From: Heterodontus francisci
Lineage: Eukaryota
Assembly: GCF_036365525.1 (NCBI RefSeq)
Contig: NC_090373.1
Location: 40,339,590-40,403,589, forward strand
Reading direction: 5' to 3'
DNA length: 64,000 nucleotides
The translations under genes were made by a program, and so were the position numbers. This document shows positions 28,684 through 43,708 of the stretch, piece by piece. The number at the start of each line of letters is the position of its first letter. Position 1 is the stretch's first letter. The notes beneath the pieces are model-generated. The model saw nothing but the letters and a program-made list of their open reading frames with translations. It ran no database searches and had not been told where the DNA came from.

Positions 28684-30599
28684 TTATAAAAAGACACAAG
28701 GGACTCCATGAAATTCACAGCTTGCTTACAAACTATTATTTTTAAAACTTATATCTTGATATAAGGATACAGCTGTATAGGTCATAAAATTTGATGGTTA
28801 ATTAGGATACAGCAATTAATATTCTCCTCAAAATCAGTTTTCAATGATTGGTGTCTTCCAGTCAACAATACGCACCAGAAGAAATGCCAGTTTCTCATGG
28901 AAGTGTTAGCTGAATGAGCCCGCAATTGATTGCCGCTAACTGCATCCTGGTGAGTTTGCAGATACAGGATGATAGCTTTCTGTGGATCTGAGAAAATTAC
29001 ATTGAAATGTAAAGTGTTTCAATTTTCTGGGAAGTATATTCCAAATTAATTGAATAGGGAAGTGTTTTACACTGCAAATACTTTACCTTTCCACATACCT
29101 TCTCATTTAATCGTATCTTGCCTCAGGCTGTCAAAATAAAGAATTGACCTCCAGTTTTGAAAAAAAAAGCATGTGATGTGAATCCACTCAAGTGAGACGG
29201 CAGCTATTAACCACAGGTTACAAAATTATGTAAAAGGTATCAAAAATTAAACAACATGGACTAGGATTAGTCTGGGCCCATTTTAAGGCCATTTTTGGGC
29301 CCAGATCCAACGTGCAGGCCGTGTGCCCCACCAAAGTCTGACCATTGCCTTCAACAATCCGCCTGACCAGTGTGTGCGCAAACCAAGACATTGAAGTTTC
29401 AATGGAAATTGGTCCTCAGATCTCATCATCATACTTGGCACAAGGTGCCAGCATCTTGCCCAAGTGAAGACATCTATGCCAGGCCTCTTGCTTCATGTGC
29501 GGTCCTCAGGTAAGTCCTGGGAATGGGGATTAAAGCAGTCAACACGAGGTGGGTGGAAATCTTGACTCCTGTAGAATTGAAGAAGCAGTTCTGCTCCTGG
29601 TGGTCCAAGAGAATTTATTTTTAAGAAACAAAAATTTAAATCACTTCACTGGAGTTGACAGCTGCTGTGAATCCTGAGTGGGTTAGGTCCAACATCAGCT
29701 GCAATCATTGATGGTGAATTTGACAATCAGTTCTTCACAAGCCATTAGATTTTTAATTTACATGTTTAAGGGTCCTAAGGGCCTGTGGTATGCTCATGAT
29801 GCCTAAAAATAGGAACTCACAAATTTCGCAGAGGAACCAATGCCTGTGCAAATTGGGTGCAGGTAAACTGACTACTGGATTGGATCCTTTCGACCTGTTT
29901 TACATGCAAAGCATGAGGGGAAAGCATACCAATTTCTACCCCATTACTTCATTGCTTCAGTACATAACATTTTCAGCAGAACCGGTAAAAAAAAGTTGAG
30001 GCAAAATTTTAAATAATGGTCAAAAGGACTGCTGCTACAATAGCAACAAACTGTGAAAGACTACAAATTGACAAAACTTTGAAGCCATTCCATAGGTAAC
30101 ACCAGCCACAGGTCGCCACTTGTCACGAACAATAGCATGATTTTTCCAATCAGCAACTAAGAGCTGGATTTTTAGGTCCCAACAGGGGGCAGGTAATGAA
30201 AATGCCAGTGCCACCCGGCATACCAGTTTTCCTCATTGGGAACAGCGCCGGCGAGTTTCACCAGGTTGGGGGGAGGGTGGCCCTGAGAACCTGCCCAATC
30301 TGCTAATGAGTGTAATTGAGGTCATTAAAGAACTCATTGAGAGCTCGTTGAGGACTATGTTCAGATTTTGGTGGGGCTGCATGGGCTATACACTGCATCT
30401 GGGGCAGACCAGGTGCATAGAGGTGGAAAGCACATTGTGGCCAATTTAGGTGGGCACATAAAAGGGAGAAGGGCTCAGAGGGTGACTTAGCTATTGGCAC
30501 ACTGGTGCCATCAGGTCGGTGCAGATTTTGGCGAGAGTGGTCAGTAAGCGCTCGAGCAGAGCAGGGACATAAGAGGAGGGGGTAAGGCTGCTAAGTCCA

Positions 30600-31745
30600 A
30601 TAGGGAGGCCAGCTGAGCACAAGGAAGGCATATTTCGGGTCCAGTAGCAATGAGGAACAACATTCTCTGCAGAAAGGGCAGAGGAAAGGAATGAGGGGCA
30701 GGAACACAATGGAGGCCATACCGTCAGGAGGGCATCTACCGCCGAAGATGGAGGTACCTTAGGATGACTGAGAACAAGTGCCGCAGGAGACTGAGGCTCT
30801 CCAGGCAGAAGTTTGTGCCCTCATCAAGGAAGAACTCACACCTCACAGCACTGCTCTCCATGCCCTGCCAGTAGCCATCAAAGTCACTGTGACTCCTTCC
30901 ACAGATCAGCTATGGATCTTGGTGGTGTCTCGCATGCAGCAGCACACCATTGCATCTCGCTGGTCACTGATGCCCTATTTGCAAAAGCTGGGCAGTACAT
31001 TTCAGACAGATGAGACATTACACAGAGGGCAGTGGATTTCACATCCATTGGTGGATTCCCCCAGTTGTAGTGCATCATCAATTGCACCCGTGTGGTCCTC
31101 AAGGCTCCAACTGAGCGCCTGGTGAGATTCATCAACAGGAAGGGCTTCCACTCCTTCAATATTCAGCTGATCTGCGACCACATGTATGCACTCGCTTTCC
31201 TGGCAGCTGCCATGACTCCTTCATCCTTTACTAGTCCAGACTGCCACAGCTCTTCATTCCCCAACCTCCCGCTGTCCGCAAACTCCATGGATGAATCCTC
31301 GGAGACAAAGGCTATCTCTTGAAGAGGCGGCTACTCATCCCTTTATGAGAACTTGAGACAGAGCCACAGAGGCACTACAACCAAAGCCATCTGCTCACTT
31401 GGACAACCATTGAGCAGGTCATTGGGCGACTGGAGATGCAGTTCCGCTGCCTGGACCAGTCAGGTGGCACCCTGCAGTACACTCCTGCAAGGGTCTCATG
31501 CATTGTGGTGGTCTGTTGTGCTCTTCATTACATGGCCCTCACAGGACCTTGAAGAGGGTGAAGCTCTGGATGGACACAGCTCATTGGAGGAACAGGAGCA
31601 ACAAAGAGGAGGAGAAGGAGGAAAAGGAGGAGGAGGAAGATGCAGAACACAGTGGTGCTACTGCTGCACAGGGAAGTGAACGGGCTCACTCGTCAGAATG
31701 CCATTAATGTCAGGGATCATCTGATTCAGCCTCATTTCATCTGAG
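30600..31745 (+). pseudogene. HARBI1-like DDE transposase pseudogene
   Basis: Across frameshifts: YLRMTENKCRRRLRLSR, INRKGFHSFNIQLICDH, PGSCHDSFIL, LGDKGY, TTIEQVIGRLEMQFRCLD, IVVVCCALH, then an acidic tail. Confidence 0.88.
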
Positions 31746-32686
31746 CCCCTCTGATGCAGGGGGAATGGCATGGTCTGGAACTCACTCTGAGCTGCCCATG
31801 ACAACACTTCCATTGAAGACGCAGTCTGGAATAAATCAATTCTTACCACCACTGAAGGATGCACATCTGGCCAAGGTTTCACTATCACTGTTCATGGACC
31901 CTTGCTCCCTTCACTACTTTATCCCTCTTTCCTTGTTCCGCCATTAATAAAAGAAGGCTCACACCTCTGGCTTCATATGATTATAGTTACCTGGTGCTCA
32001 AAAAGAAAAAAATTGCACAGTTACAGGTGAAACAAACCCCAGTGACACACTCAGTACTCTGCCCAATGCGATGGGCTCCACTCTTGGCCATTTCTATGCA
32101 GTGCTCCCCTTCTAACCAAGGAGGAGGTGGAGGCAACCTGCTGACTGGTCTTTACCTGTGGCAGATGGTGGTCATTCTTGTCATGGAGATGCTCATGGGG
32201 GAACCTCCAGAGGCTGCTGCACCAGCATCTTTCCAGGGGCAGCCTCCGTCACTGGGTCCTGCTGGGCAGATGCTCCCTTTGTCAGAGGTGCCAGGGAAGC
32301 TGATGATAATGATGATGGTTCCCTCATCCTCCTCGATGACTGCCTCAGCCCTTGCCCAGTACTATGGAGGGCTGGAGAGGCTCACCAGTTGGAGCGCAAC
32401 TGGCATCCCCACCAAACATCTCTGTACCATCAACAACACTGACCGGTCAAGGTTACATAGGGCTGGATGTAGCGTTCCCATCATGGCTTCGGGCAGCAGG
32501 CGACCAATTATAATAATGGAGACATGGCGCCCGGCCAATCATGCGAGAGGGTGGGATTTGAGGCGTCGAACGAGCTGTCAGATGACTCCGGAGCAGGTGC
32601 TGCCTTTGAGTCATTTGCTGATAACTGCTGAAACTAATGTTAAAGAGACTCCTGGACTCCCAGCCCCCCTACAAGGATCCCGCAGT

Positions 32687-35370
32687 ATGGCAGAGGCAAG
32701 ACACCGGGTGGGCCCATGGCTTAGCAATGCCTCCCTTGAGATTATCCTCCAGGCTGCAAGGGAAAGGCGGGAGGTCCTCTTCCCCAGTGTTGGCAAGAAG
32801 AGGGCCTGTGGCCTGACCAAGCAAGCTTGGATGGAGATCACAGAGCAGGTCAGCAACTGTGGGGCCACCGCCATACCCCCCCGGAACTGGGTACAGTGCC
32901 GCAAGAGGGTCAAAGACCTCCTTCGTTCTGCCAAGGTGAGTGCATCATCGGGAGGAAGATACCACAAAGGCACTGGCCAAGGGGATTAGGCATCACCACA
33001 TGCTGACAGATGCATGATTGCATCTTGGCCACTGGCCACCTTCTTTCACAGCTTTTTTCATCAAAAGAGCTGAACTCAAGATGTGAGTTGAGAGTGACTG
33101 CCCTTGACATCAAGGCAGCATTTGACCGAGTATGGCATCACGGAGCCCTAGCAAAACTGGAGTCAATGGGAATCAGGGGGAAAACTCTCTGCTGGTTGGA
33201 GTCATACCTAGCACAAAGGAAGATGGTTGTGGTTGTTGGAGGTCAATCATCTGAGCTCCAGGACATCACTGCAGGAGTTCCTCAGGGTAGTGTCCTAGGC
33301 CCAACCATCTTCAGCTGCTTCATCAATGACCTTCCTTCAATCATAAGGTCAGAAGTGGGGATGTTCGCTGATGATTGCACAATGTTCCGCACCATTCGCA
33401 ACTCCTCAGATACTGAAGCAGTCCATGTAGAAATGCAGCAAGACATGGACAATATCCAGGCTTGGGCTGATAAGTGGCAAGTAACATTTGCGCCACACAA
33501 GTGCCAGGCAATGACCATCTCCAACAAGAGAGAATCTAACCATCTCCCCTTGACATTCAATGGCATTACGATCAGTGAATCCTCCACTATCAACATCCTG
33601 GGAGTTATCATTGACCAGAAACTGAACTGGAGTAGTCATATAAATACCGTGACTACAAGAGCAGGTCAGAGGCTAGGAATCCTGCGGCGAGTAGCTCACC
33701 TCCTGACTCCCCAAAGCCTATCTACCATCTACAATGCACAAGTCAGGAGTGTGATGGAATACTCTCCACTTGCCTGGATGGGTGCAGCTCCAACAACACT
33801 CAAGAAGCTCAACACCATCCAGAACAAAGCAGCCCGCTTGATTGGCACACCATCCACTGACGCACAGTGGCAGCAGTGTGTACCATCTACAAGATGCACT
33901 GCAGCAACGCACCAAGGCTCCTTCGACAGCACCTTCCAAACCCGTGACCTCTACCACCTCGAAGGACAAGAGTAGCAGATGCATGGGAACACCACCACCT
34001 GCAAGTTCCCGTCCAAGTCACACACCATCCTGACTTGGAACTATATCGCCGTCCCTTCACTGTCGCTGGGTCAAAATCCTGGAACTCCCTTCCTAACAGC
34101 ACTGTGGGTGTACCTACCTCACATGGACTGCTGCGGTTCAAGAAAGCATCTCACGACCACCTTCTCAAGGGCAATTAGGGATGGGCAATAAATGCTGGCA
34201 TAGCCAGTGATGTCCACATCCCATGAATGAATAAAAAAAAAGCTCACCTCCATTACCTCCCCTGAGAGCTGACATGTGGATGAGCCATATAGGAAACCCC
34301 AGCAGGGGACAAGGGGCTGCCTGTCCTTTTTGTCTTCCTCTGAAGTATTACTATCTCCCTCTTTCAACTTGCAGGACAAGTGGGCCCATAATAAGAGGAA
34401 GACCTCGCAGACCGGTGGAGGAATTGCAGACATACAGCCTTTCTCAGCAGCTGAGAATGAAGCACTGGAGTTAGTGGGGACCCAGGATGGCCACTCAATA
34501 GTGGATGGTTAGTCTGGAGTGTCCACGCAAAAGAGTGAGGATTGTCTTCCAGCGACATCCAACACACTTCTGGAGACCCACATCAAACATGGACATCATG
34601 AAAAGATCTGCAATGCCTAACCCACACCTTTGTGTTCTCTCATGCAGGTCGGCATCCACAGGAGACTCCATCAAAAGGAGGAGATCATTTAATCTCTGAG
34701 GAGGAGCAATCAGAGGCTGCAATGTCACATGATTGTCCTGCACCTTCCACTGATGCAGGTACTTTCACCTCAGTGGGTTTCTGCTCGGCTTTAGAATCAG
34801 GCTGGTGAGAACACTGCACATGCGCCCAAGCAGCTGGCTGAGGCTGAGACAGCCGCGGCCTCTGACAGTCGGAGGACTGTGGGTGGCCAGGCCCATGCTA
34901 AGCCCCAGGCTGATGACGAGCCTCTGGTGTTGCAGAGAGAGGGAAGGCAACATCTGTCGGAGCTGCCAGAGGCCATGCACAGCCATGAGCAAATGCTGGA
35001 GGAGTCTATCTATGCCATGAGTGCTGCCATGTCTCAGGTGTATGAGCGCATGGTCTCCTCCATCGAGATGTTGACAACTATCATGGAGAGTCAGATCCCA
35101 CAGATGTACACTGACCTGCACACCATCACCTTGGCCATGATATAGCAGTGGCAAGGCGAGAGATGGACAAGGCCCCTGGACTCTTCTCCATTCCTCGTCC
35201 TTCTCTGGTAAGTTGGGAGGTTCAACTGAACTTTGAAAGAGAGGAGGAGCCACTGTCCTTTATAGCTGCGGGTCTCCCCTCAGGGCACTCTGAGTGTGAA
35301 CAGTGGCTCCTCAGGCATCATGCCACAGGGGTCCACAAAGACAGGGTTTATGAGACCCATGCCAGGTGAT
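32687..35370 (+). pseudogene. Myb/SANT-like (NAIF1/MSANTD-type trihelix) gene with 3 exons
   Basis: Exon 1 (32687-32935) is open for 83 codons: MAEARHRVGPWLSNASLEIILQAARERREVLF..KQAWMEITEQV..RNWVQCRKRVKDL, donor AAG|GTGAGT. Exon 2 from 34375 reads DKWAHNKRKTSQTGGG, with a premature TAG at 34510. Exon 3 from ~34648 includes ORF 34879..35145. Confidence 0.82.
33062..34241 (+). mobile_element. Family B LINE (RT to 3' tail) inserted in intron 1 of the Myb gene
   Basis: ALDIKAAFDRVWH, GVPQGSVLGP, FADD and WQVTFAPHKC in ORF 33010..33975. Tail CCCATGAATGAATAAAAAAAAA. Confidence 0.93.
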
Positions 35371-37505
35371 CAGTAGGCCTCCAGAGCGCTGTCCTTGCAG
35401 TGACTAAGCTGCCTTGTCATCTTTGCCTTTGCTACTCCTCTCGGTTGATATCCAACTGTCTCGCCAAGCACTGTGGCCACCCGTGCCAATCCCACTCAGC
35501 ATCAAACCCACCCAAGCCTATCCGTGCAGAGCACACAATATTACAGGCCGAGAATGCCCTCCGCTCCTGCCCTTTCCCTATCCAGCAATGTTCATGGCTG
35601 CCTTCCTATCGCAGCATTGAGGCCAAGCCTCAGTGGTGCCAGCTTTTAACGGCCGTGGATTCGAAGGCACGTGAGGGCTGCCCACTGTCTACTTAATTTC
35701 AAACCCCCCCATTGAATCGCTTTCAATTACATGCAAATATATTAAAACTAACTGTTCTGCAATTCAAATGGCATTCCCTTCGCGTTGGGGCAACAGGCCA
35801 GCTTGGTGCTTTTTCGTCACTAAGTCCCAAACTGACCTCATGATGTCAGATTCTGGGCAGTCATGTCCCACACTATTCTTCGGCCTGCCAGGCCTCCAAT
35901 CTCATTCTAAATGGCCTCAGTAAATTCAGCCCATAGTGTGGCTGTCAGTGCGCAGTTCCTGCATGCACTTCAAGTGCTGCCACATATGGCTGTCCATGAG
36001 CTTGGCCACTCTCTCAATGGAGGAGCTCATGTGCTCAAAGCCCTGAACCATGGTGGAGCACACGAGCTAAATAGACTCTTCCTTTCTCAGCGCATAACCC
36101 TGCATTGCCTCAAGGAACTCTGACATGTGGGAGCACATCTGCTGCTGCTGGTCTAGGTAGAGTCTCCATTCCTGTGACTCCCAAGGCCCTGCAATTGCAC
36201 CCAGCTGAACATGGCTGTGGCTGTGCTCCATCCTCTGAGGGGAACTGCCCACAGCTTTCTCTGTCACCTTCCTGCTCACTCGTGATTTTCTCATCACCCA
36301 GGGCTACCCTATATATCCATGCATGAAGAGCCAACGAGGTGACTGAAAGTGCTGGTGGCACTTGTTAGGTGTGATGGTGCTTGTTCTGAGTTCAGCTCTG
36401 CCAGCACCTGGCCTGGAGATGGTACAGCAGTCAGCCTTTGTGGTTCCACATCAGAACCTGAGGAAGACACAAGAAGAGATCATGAGAAGTAGCCTTGGAG
36501 GGCAGAAGCCTCTGCCGTGCTGAGTCTTCCCAAAGCAACTGAGTCTTTGGCATGCTGTCGGATGGGATGGAGTACAATGCATCTCCTTAATCTATGCATT
36601 CTAGTTTCTATTTACCCTCTCCACCAGGGATGCCCGTCTCACCTTCCCCAACTTGCTCGAGGTCAGCGATCCTGATTATCTCCATGGCTCCCTCTTCCAT
36701 GCTGTGTAAGAAGGGAAACTCTCCTCCTGCTTCGGCCCTCTCATGGTCATTGTGAGCCCATTTCTCCTGCAAGGACAAACAAGAGAGCAATAAAGCTGGC
36801 CTCGATGGCTAACGCCAGCAGCTCATTTTCACAAGACAATGGATGTATCAGTGCTGGCAGACCATCAATAGCACTCTAGCATTGAGCCTTGTTGAGGTGT
36901 CAGTAAGTGCTCTGAGCTCACACTCCTCCCAAGTTCAGGAGCAGCACGTGCCCTCAAGCTCCTTAGATGGAGTGTCTGCTGGAGGGTGAATACCCAGAGG
37001 CATGTCCTGAGGGTGTGGTGTTGCATTCACCTTGTCAGAGCGAATAAGGTTATTGAACTTCTTCTGGCACTGGATCCAGTTCCTCCTGAACACACTCCAT
37101 CTGCTCACTGTCTCCGCCAGCTAAATCCAGCCCTGCTTGGTCTGGGAGGTTGGCCTCTTCTGGGAGAAGGACCTCTCCCTCACTGCCTCAAGGAGGATCT
37201 CAAGGTTGGTATCCACAAAGCAAAGGGCAGCCCTGCTTTCATGTTTATTCTAGCAAGCAAATCTCTAAAATTGCAGCCACAGTAACTGCTGCCACGGTAG
37301 GGTTAATTGGGCCCGCTCTCTTTCAGTCCCATCTTCGTTCTCAACTTCACGGCCACTAATTGGCTGCCCAGCATGCCCTCTAGCAAACTAACAGTCCATC
37401 CCCATGAAAATTGGGGTCTGTGACTCTTTCTCCCCAAAGCTGGATTGGGACCTGGAAACAGTCCCGGCATCCATTTCCCACCCCAGAAGGAAAATCCTGC
37501 CCTAA

Positions 37506-41379: not shown

Positions 41380-42800
41380 ATGTCGGCCAGCCGGAGGTGT
41401 CCCGCCCCACGGTTCAGTGATACCTCCCGGCAGGTTCTCCTCTAAACCATCAGGGAAAGGCAAGAGGTCCTCTTCTCTGCAGATGGAGTGTTAAATCTCT
41501 CCTGCCTGACCAAGGTGACCTGGATAGAGGTAGCAGAGGAGGTCTCAAATTGTGTGGTGACGTGCAGAACATGGGTGCAGTGTCACAAGCGCATCAGTGA
41601 CTTGCCCAGACTGGCGAGGGCAAGTGGTCTTGGTGAAACCGCTCCATTTTTTTTTCTCCCTGGCTCCACCTCTTTAAGACAGAAGGCAAACAAGGCATAC
41701 ATTGGATTGCATGAGCAGCCTTGCTGACATATTCTGAATAATTGTATGCAAAGTTGACGATTTGTATTGTTGATGGGCTTGGACGTGTAGCGCGAAAGCG
41801 AGTTTTGAATGATTGCTGTCGATGAATGTTTATAATGGTTATGATTCTTTAAAAAAAAATTCTCATTCAATCTGTACTGTCTCCCGCAGGACAAACACAT
41901 CCACAACTAGTACGAGCAAGACAAGACAGGTGTCGCTGACATTAGAGTGTTGACACCGGCTGAAGAGGAGGCTGCACAAATAGTGAGAGAGGAGGGGGTC
42001 AGGGCAATAGCAGATAGCGAGGCAGGATCTTCAAGGCTTAAGGATGAAGTGTCATCTTCAGTCTTGCAGTCATGTGTGCATATCCACTGGAAGTGACTGA
42101 ACTAATGCGAAACTGATGCTTAATATGCCTCTGTTTGTGTCTCGACTGCAGGTGCCCACACTCGAGTGTCTGGAAGCCACGAGGCCCAAGACTCCTCCTC
42201 TTGGGAGGAAGATGAAGCAAGTGCCCCAGAGGGTGCACCATCACCTGCCTCTTCTTCCATATCCGCCAGTGAAGATACATCCATACAGTCCACGGGCGGG
42301 TTTAAGATTAGAATCTAGGTCACATTCTGGTGCACGACACAGGCACATCCCAGCAGCTGAGGGAGCATGTGCCAGCTGGGCCCCCTGACAATCGGAGGAC
42401 TTCTGGGGACCAGGCTCCTGATCAGCCCCACGCTCATGATGATTCTTTGTTTGTTGCTACGAGAAGTCTGTTGGATGTGCAGCAAAGCCATGTGGAAAAT
42501 ATGTTGGAGATACCTGAGGTCATGCATGGCTTTGTGCGTGCCATGGAGGAGTCCATGCAAGCCATGACGTCTGCCATGTTCCGTTTGATCATATGACTTC
42601 CTCAGTTGAGAGTCTGGCGAGCTCCGTGGCGAATCTGGTTGAGCACTCGAGCCATATGTGATCTGACCTGCACTCCATTGATGTTGCAGTGGGCTCCATG
42701 GAGCAGAGTCTAAGCGAGAGGGGGCATGGAATCTGGACCTCCCTCTGGGTGCTTCTTACCCTTAAGGAGAAAGGTAGGTGCAATCGTGCACACAGATGGA
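41380..42800 (+). pseudogene. Myb/SANT-like partner gene of Harbinger B
   Basis: Exon 1 has PRFSDTS..IRERQEVLF..TKVTWIEVAEEVS..RTWVQCHKRISDL. Exon 2 from 41890 reads DKHIHN*YEQDKTG..LTPAEEEA. Exon 3 from ~42152. Confidence 0.78.
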
Positions 42801-42994
42801 GGACGAGCGCGTGCCAACTGTCCTGGGGCATTCCTCTCAGGACACCCCCAGGGTAAGTGGCGTTTCGTCCTCCCTCCCAACATTGACCTCCAACCGGCGA
42901 ACACACGGGGGATATTCACATGCCAGTCCTGCAGACCCCCACTAGGATGGCGCCATCAAGACCCTGTTCCCCCATGGTCATCCACAGCAATGGG

Positions 42995-43708
42995 TCATCG
43001 CACTGAGAAGATGTGCATGATTCTTCTCCTGTAGTTGCAAACCAGTTGTATGTTTAAAGAGTGGAAGCCTTTGCAATTCAGAAATACAACAGATTGGTGC
43101 CAGGGAGCTCTAATGGCCACGTGAGTACAGTCCATCAGCCCTTGCACTCTAGGGAACCCAGTAATGGCATTGAAAGGCACAGACCTTTCTGCCTGGCTGT
43201 CCTTGTCTACAGGTAAGTAGATAGAATCATTGGCACATTGAAAAAAGGCGTTGGTCACCTCTTTGTTGCACCTGTGGGTTGCAGACTGCAAGATGCCACA
43301 TATGTCACCTGTGGATCCCTGGAAAGATCCACTAGTAAAATAATTGAGTGCAGCAGTCGCCTTGAGGGTAACTGGCATCGGATTCCCACTAAAGCCAAAT
43401 GGCTGCAGGTCATGCCGCAGAATCCCACAAATTTCTGTGACCATTTCACGTGACATCCTTAGGCGACTCTGGCATTTCCTCTCTGACATTTGTAGGTAAT
43501 TTGTCCTTGTCCTGAGGATGCGATGACATGCCAGTGCCCGTCTTTGATAATGCCGTTCCTGGATGTTATCATTCGGAGCATCCTCACCTTCCTGCTCTGC
43601 CTGTTGCTGGCATTCAGGCATCATGAGTTGAGGGAAAAGAGCCCTCCTTAGTCTCTCTCCTTGCTCTTCTTCCCATGGTATTAGACAAATTGGGTGTTTG
43701 AGACCCAT
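42995..43708 (-). pseudogene. HARBI1-like transposase, N-terminal 237 aa open, C-terminal catalytic half deleted
   Basis: YLQMSERKCQSRLRMSR, ALNYFTSGSFQ, GFPRVQGLMDCTHVAI, NCKGFHSLNIQLVCN. The GSxHD, GDxGY and RxxIE motifs are absent. Confidence 0.9.

What the first reader, a model, noticed from the sequence alone, without database searches (positions are those of the whole stretch)
30161..37502. Harbinger nested in Harbinger: a Myb-only element inserted into the Myb gene of a full two-gene element
Seen: the outer element has TIRs and a TAA TSD and carries a convergent transposase (+) and Myb/SANT gene (-). Inside its Myb last exon lies a second element (32460-35932) with its own TIRs and an ATA TSD. 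That element holds a 3-exon Myb/SANT gene but no transposase core, and has a LINE in its intron 1. Known: PIF/Harbinger needs two proteins, a DDE transposase and a Myb-like subterminal-binding protein, and makes 3-bp TSDs. Inference: the inner element may be a 'half-autonomous' class that supplies its own DNA-binding partner and borrows transposase in trans.
Basis: partly seen in the sequence, partly recalled or inferred. Interest (0 to 1): 0.7.

Follow-up and report, generated by a model that had tools for sequence, protein, structure and literature searches.

The report
Nested dead transposons; Myb-keeping shark lineage
One dead cut-and-paste transposon sits inside another; the inner copy is broken in its own way, but it likely came from a real lineage of 100 or more copies that lost the cutting enzyme, kept the DNA-binding gene and was likely moved by intact sisters, a kind already reported in a nematode and in sea snakes.

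Summary
The nesting is real: both elements have TIRs and 3-bp TSDs, and excising the inner one restores the sequence seen in 19 of 20 outer-family relatives. The inner copy is dead. Its deletion junction lies at 35314|35315, not 35370-35400, occurs once in the 6-Gb genome, and also removes the last ~78 Myb codons. A transposase-less lineage of the same family does exist: at least 100 dispersed copies share another junction, a 1,083-bp deletion between ~13-bp direct repeats, with different TSDs; 1,253 copies are intact there. The window copy probably derives from that lineage (about 75%). Whether its Myb gene worked is open. The reconstructed ORF stays open and exons 1-2 show few amino-acid changes (p about 0.03-0.07), but the strict whole-gene test is not significant, and the middle of exon 3 is shuffled with full-length sisters. 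Myb-only Harbingers are in print (PMC13668399, PMC8437027), and this scan noted them before in other genomes. New member of a known kind.

The parts
30158..30160 (.). outer TSD, left (TAA)
30161..30172 (+). outer left TIR
   Evidence: 10 of 12 bases match the right TIR
30734..31744 (+). outer HARBI1-type transposase pseudogene (aligned part to the stop; start not fixed)
   Evidence: tblastn pieces in three frames, 41-60% identity; weak DDE_Tnp_4 hit below cut-off
32051..32456 (-). outer Myb last exon, 3' part (stop read from the translation)
32457..32459 (.). inner TSD, left (ATA)
32460..32471 (+). inner left TIR
32687..32935 (+). inner Myb exon 1 (Myb/SANT domain; 9-bp in-frame insertion)
33054..34240 (+). 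5'-truncated LINE in intron 1, AGCT on both sides, 8-bp inverted tail-like piece at its 5' end
34375..34534 (+). inner Myb exon 2, stop codon at 34510
34648..35314 (+). inner Myb exon 3, frameshifted and cut off
35314..35315 (.). private deletion junction: 1,696 bp missing against the full family reference, about 610 bp against the transposase-less lineage
35315..35360 (-). remnant of the transposase 5' end (about 15 codons; start codon inferred)
35921..35932 (-). inner right TIR
35933..35935 (.). inner TSD, right (ATA)
35936..36457 (-). outer Myb last exon, 5' part (acceptor predicted from sequence)
36616..36766 (-). outer Myb exon 2 (splice sites predicted from sequence)
37031..37242 (-). 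outer Myb exon 1, with an internal stop
37491..37502 (-). outer right TIR
37503..37505 (.). outer TSD, right (TAA)

Best explanation
A Harbinger copy sits inside the Myb gene of a copy of another Harbinger family and both are dead; the inner copy likely belonged to a transposase-deleted, Myb-keeping lineage that was likely moved in trans by full-length sisters, and it later took a LINE and a private deletion. Shown: the nesting, the decay, the unique junction, and a lineage of at least 100 copies sharing a 1,083-bp deletion of the transposase between ~13-bp direct repeats, with TIRs and different TSDs. Inferred: the shared deletion arose by microhomology in a full-length parent subfamily; the deleted lineage then spread through successive master copies using sister transposase; the window copy inserted early in that spread and lost about 610 bp more in place. 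The lineage's Myb ORF stayed open at the master level, likely helped by sequence exchange with full-length sisters; selection on exons 1-2 is possible but not established.
For: Shared junction: 10 copies aligned, repeats at both breakpoints, 100 genome matches against 1,253 intact. TSDs: of 26 deleted copies with both ends, 12 perfect, 13 one mismatch, 1 none; after dropping one segmental duplicate 24 of 25 are within one mismatch, chance 0.17 each. The deleted part is DDE_Tnp_4 (E 1e-29). 142 sites separate 52 deleted from 37 full copies. Of 37 examined loci with both late-lineage alleles, 35 lack the core, 1 is interrupted and 1 is full. Window copy: inside a clade of 36 deleted copies plus one core-bearing copy; naive-Bayes score 16.0, while 16 parent-like full copies score at most 7.4 and 14 of 16 early deleted copies score above 0. 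Exon 3 middle is in near linkage equilibrium with everything (mean r2 0.03-0.04 against 0.05-0.20 elsewhere) and shares its polymorphisms with full copies. A 1.6-kb, 98%-identical tract joins a deleted and a full copy.
Against: The diagnostic junction is gone from the window copy, so membership is indirect. Of its 39 nearest exon-2 relatives 19 are deleted, 13 carry transposase core and 7 are unclassified. Support at the base of the clade is weak (SH-aLRT 89, UFBoot 36); the 100% support came from a sample that lacked the closest full copies. In one search three deleted copies (L078, L133, L147) fall among full ones and L123 pairs with full L146, so the microhomology deletion may have happened more than once. 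Fewer amino-acid changes than expected argue against a purely passive Myb gene.
Confidence: 0.68

Rival explanations
1. Half-autonomous lineage: the deleted masters made a working Myb protein that favoured their own mobilisation, so selection kept the gene.
For: Late master keeps a 446-codon ORF; no gap in the CDS reaches 15% of deleted copies, and the only frequent stops are at two CpG codons and one TGG codon. Lineage changes N:S 4:7 (parent to late) and 2:5 (early to late), p 0.013 and 0.019 at a neutral N share of 0.726. Alleles private to deleted copies: N 8 against 18 synonymous plus intron changes, p 0.007. Exons 1-2: N 2 against 15, p 0.028.
Against: Strict N:S is 8:6-7, p 0.09-0.16; exons 1-2 alone 2:4, p 0.066. 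Exon 3 middle is exchanged with full copies and cannot count. Exon 1 has few changes of either kind, as homogenisation would give. Several thresholds were tried. No sampled deleted copy with over 350 aligned codons has fewer than 5 lesions. Myb protein acts in trans in assays (PMC2836001, passages), so a cis advantage needs an extra mechanism.
Confidence: 0.35
2. The inner copy inserted as a full two-gene element of the parent subfamily and lost the transposase and the Myb 3' end in one private 1.7-kb deletion; it has nothing to do with the deleted lineage.
For: Junction unique. 13 of 39 nearest relatives carry transposase core. Basal, weakly supported position. Private deletions of many sizes are common in the family.
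Against: Score 16.0 exceeds every parent-like full copy. Closest to the early-deleted master (0.093) rather than the parent master (0.101). Full copies outnumber deleted ones 12 to 1, yet deleted ones are the larger group among its nearest relatives.
Confidence: 0.22
3. The shared junction comes from repeated, independent deletions between the same direct repeats after insertion, not from spread of a deleted master.
For: Breakpoints lie in ~13-bp repeats. A few deleted copies group with full ones. L123 (deleted) and L146 (full) are 98% alike up to the junction.
Against: Late alleles 36-47 bp from the junction occur almost only in deleted copies (35 of 36 informative loci). Derived alleles are linked across both arms and form a ladder. 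The L123/L146 likeness covers only 1.6 kb and no flanks, as conversion would give.
Confidence: 0.07

Closest known systems
Harbinger-1M_cIno of Caenorhabditis inopinata (PMC13668399; abstract, passages and Discussion read)
   Same: TIR-bounded, multi-copy PIF/Harbinger derivatives that keep the DNA-binding gene and lack the DDE gene; trans supply inferred, not shown.
   Different: There the family is active, 14 of 19 MADF loci are intact and one intact DDE locus remains. Here all sampled copies are dead (about 9% non-CpG divergence), full copies outnumber deleted ones 12 to 1, and one junction is shared. The word 'purifying' does not occur in its main text.
Harbinger-Snek solo-ORF variants of Laticauda sea kraits (PMC8437027; passages)
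   Same: [quoted passage not shown]
   Different: Young and partly intact; transposase-only variants are commoner. The passages seen give no junction or selection analysis ('purifying' 0 hits).
Harbinger3_DR and Ping/Pong two-protein system (PMC2836001, passages; PMC9179366, passages)
   Same: DDE transposase plus Myb-like protein, 3-bp TSD; both proteins needed, supplied in trans in assays.
   Different: TSDs here are AT-rich but varied (ATT, AAT, TAT, ACA, ATA), not only TAA/TTA.
Microhomology-born families Gnome, Elf, Goblin from Ozma (PMC3814204; abstract only)
   Same: Non-autonomous families founded by a deletion between short direct repeats.
   Different: Tc1/mariner MITEs without genes, 6-8-bp repeats; here ~13 bp and a whole second gene is kept.

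Membership tests
PIF/Harbinger | DDE_Tnp_4 (HARBI1-type) transposase | tested here: met
   Full sisters E 1e-29 to 5e-18; best relatives are named HARBI1 from sharks; outer copy decayed
PIF/Harbinger | second gene with Myb/SANT domain | tested here: met
   Myb_DNA-bind_5 above cut-off; convergent layout in sisters
PIF/Harbinger | short TIRs and 3-bp TSD | tested here: met
PIF/Harbinger | TAA/TTA target preference | tested here: inconclusive
   outer TAA; inner family TSDs AT-rich but varied, decayed
PIF/Harbinger | both proteins needed for transposition | not testable with these tools
   literature only
Myb/MADF-only (solo-ORF) Harbinger | many TIR-bounded copies with the DNA-binding gene and no DDE core, separate insertions | tested here: met
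Myb/MADF-only (solo-ORF) Harbinger | the window copy's own junction is shared | tested here: not met
   1 match genome-wide
Myb/MADF-only (solo-ORF) Harbinger | the window copy descends from the deleted lineage | tested here: inconclusive
   favoured; weak tree support
Myb/MADF-only (solo-ORF) Harbinger | intact DNA-binding ORF in present copies | tested here: not met
   window copy broken; fewest lesions 5 among sampled deleted copies
Myb/MADF-only (solo-ORF) Harbinger | purifying selection on the kept gene within the deleted lineage | tested here: inconclusive
Myb/MADF-only (solo-ORF) Harbinger | expression of the kept gene | not tested
   no RNA run of the best-holding organism was offered

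The most novel reading that the evidence does not exclude
A vertebrate cut-and-paste lineage evolved through successive masters without a transposase while selection kept its Myb DNA-binding exons, which would mean the helper protein favours the element that encodes it; meanwhile the middle of exon 3 acted as a recombination hot spot shared by deleted and full elements.
Probability: 0.35. Interest if true: 0.68.

Novelty: new member of a known kind. Interest (0 to 1): 0.36.

Why it matters
As found, this is a further vertebrate case of a recently described kind, with a mapped founding deletion. It would matter more if selection on the Myb gene inside the transposase-less lineage held up: DNA-transposon proteins are usually taken to act in trans (own knowledge), so a kept helper gene would point to a cis advantage and explain why Myb-only Harbingers recur. 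The 100-200 fossil copies and their ladder of masters make that testable by computation. The unlinked middle of exon 3 warns that such tests are confounded by exchange between copies.

Tried and rejected
Junction at 35370-35400: rejected, relatives break at 35314|35315. A family sharing the window's junction: rejected; at 55% power per copy, five more copies would all be missed about 2% of the time. The pattern was meant as a marker of deleted copies but lies in the transposase 3' end of both types (990 matches); not used. The first tree (UFBoot 100) was superseded once closer full copies were added. The p-values printed use singletons as the neutral standard, which overstates the N share (0.78); I use 0.726. 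The lack of fixed differences in exon 3 first looked like strong constraint; searches show shuffling instead. Selection in the window copy itself: N:S 56:26, p 0.22, neutral. Runs of other organisms mainly hold the LINE; no listed contig bridged 35314|35315, which proves nothing. The outer consensus stayed rough and its TSD table is out of register; not used. Paper searches that gave no report of selection on Myb-only Harbingers: (listings only); subscription papers, Repbase entries and supplements were not seen and may hold one.

Full report
Setting. The window lies in G000, a 6.0-Gb genome. The closest named relatives of the family's transposase are 'putative nuclease HARBI1' records from sharks, so I treat it as a shark genome. 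Both elements belong to large families: the DNA searches gave thousands of first-look candidates, of which only 40 were scored each time.

Nesting. The outer element runs 30161-37502 between TAA triplets and the inner 32460-35932 between ATA triplets; each TIR pair matches at 10 of 12 bases. With 32460-35935 left out, the outer sequence aligns through a single ATA with 19 of the 20 relatives fetched (the top 20 of 40 hits); the exception has a LINE tail there. The insertion lies in the predicted last Myb exon. The outer copy is dead, with stops and frameshifts in both genes. Nesting needs no special cause: Harbingers are dense here, and 10 of 95 loci of deleted copies hold another transposase-like stretch within the fetched DNA.

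The inner copy. Full sisters are about 4.3 kb, with a three-exon, 446-codon Myb gene and a convergent transposase. The window copy lacks 1,696 bp at 35314|35315, which removes the last ~78 Myb codons, the shared 3' region and all but about 15 codons of the transposase. It also has a stop at 34510 and three frameshifting indels, and a LINE at 33054-34240. Its private changes are neutral (56:26, p 0.22). A 24-base pattern across the junction matches once in the genome; the undeleted left side matches 3,578 times. 63 of 115 sampled copies covering both sides would pass such a pattern. So this junction marks no family.

A real transposase-less lineage. Ten right-end relatives had about 600 bp instead of about 1,650 bp at this place and shared one junction. 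The deletion is 1,083 bp, in frame, between ~13-bp direct repeats. Its junction matches 100 places on many contigs, the intact form 1,253. I fetched 40 of the 100 in list order, lowest mismatch first, and they showed the jump across the core. A hand comparison (34 of about 60 deleted hits in both) suggests roughly 175 copies. Of 26 deleted copies with both ends, 12 have a perfect 3-bp TSD and 13 one mismatch; flanks differ except for one segmental duplicate pair. A marker of late alleles beside the junction gave 66 matches; 46 were examined in sequence, 37 carry both alleles, and of these 35 lack the core, one is interrupted and one is full. The other 20 I matched by position to known deleted copies. 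Trees show a ladder from older full copies through a parent subfamily to early and late deleted copies. That the lineage used sister transposase in trans is inferred from the two-protein requirement (PMC2836001, passages).

Does the window copy belong to it? The private deletion took out the diagnostic junction. Among 39 nearest exon-2 relatives, 19 are deleted, 13 carry core and 7 are unclassified. In the tree of 67 copies without CpG sites, mid exon 3 or core (L123 and L146 left out as a conversion pair, poorly covered copies left out), it lies near the base of a clade of all 36 deleted copies plus L124, with weak support. A leave-one-out classifier scores it 16.0; 16 parent-like full copies range from -26.1 to 7.4 and 16 early deleted copies from -14.0 to 20.7. 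I put membership at about 75%.

Did the lineage use its Myb gene? For: the late master keeps the ORF, and lineage changes are 4 N to 7 S (parent to late) and 2 to 5 (early to late), p 0.013 and 0.019. Among 95 deleted copies (13 duplicates dropped) shared variants are 21 N to 21 S, omega 0.38, against 0.30 in 61 full copies. Against: many of those variants also segregate in full copies. Counting only alleles private to deleted copies (L146 and L182 left out of the full set) gives 8 N to 6-7 S, p 0.09-0.16, or p about 0.01 when introns join the neutral class; at frequency 25% or more it is 3 to 5, p 0.04. Most mid-exon-3 variants do not track the lineage ladder and show r2 of 0.03-0.04 with every region, while the two arms stay linked across them at 0.13. 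A 1.6-kb conversion-like tract between L123 and L146 shows such exchange directly. The linked exons 1-2 give 2 N against 4 S (p 0.066) or 15 S plus intron changes (p 0.028). This is suggestive and rests on few sites.

Comparison. Myb/MADF-only Harbingers are described in C. inopinata (PMC13668399; abstract, passages, Discussion), whose authors call trans supply hypothetical, and as solo-ORF variants in sea kraits (PMC8437027; passages). Microhomology-born non-autonomous families are known (PMC3814204; abstract). This scan noted such families in other genomes. I saw no report of a selection test on such a lineage, which cover only the held library; supplements were not read.

Verdict. Ordinary nesting of two dead copies. 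The inner one is probably a further-damaged member of a real Myb-keeping lineage of a known kind. The open and testable point is selection on its Myb exons. Interest 0.36.

Noticed in passing
window 41380-43606: A third, different Harbinger copy: Myb exons on + from 41380, transposase residues 18-216 on - (56% identical to the inner family), with the 3' parts of both genes apparently deleted near 43000; no TIRs found by my pattern.
   Followed up: partly
window 33050-33061 and 34241-34244: The LINE is flanked by AGCT and begins with 8 bases that read as an inverted copy of its 3' tail, as twin priming might leave (mechanism recalled).
   Followed up: no
inner family, Myb exon 3 middle (includes window about 34750-35314): About 800 bp in near linkage equilibrium with itself and both flanks, in deleted and full copies alike; cause unexplained.
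   Followed up: partly
L123:3015-4592 and L146:3012-4592 (oriented): 98%-identical 1.6-kb tract between a deleted and a full copy 1.8 Mb apart on one contig, ending at the deletion junction; looks like ectopic gene conversion.
   Followed up: partly
shared deletion of the transposase-less lineage: The deletion is in frame and joins the first ~24 transposase codons to the last ~13; in the late master the stop appears shifted. Probably a by-product of the repeat's phase.
   Followed up: no
L011 and L020: Each holds two copies of the inner family in opposite orientation, adjacent or nested.
   Followed up: no
L155:5456-6388 (-): A 311-codon stop-free stretch of the family transposase, the longest among 61 full copies.
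   Followed up: no
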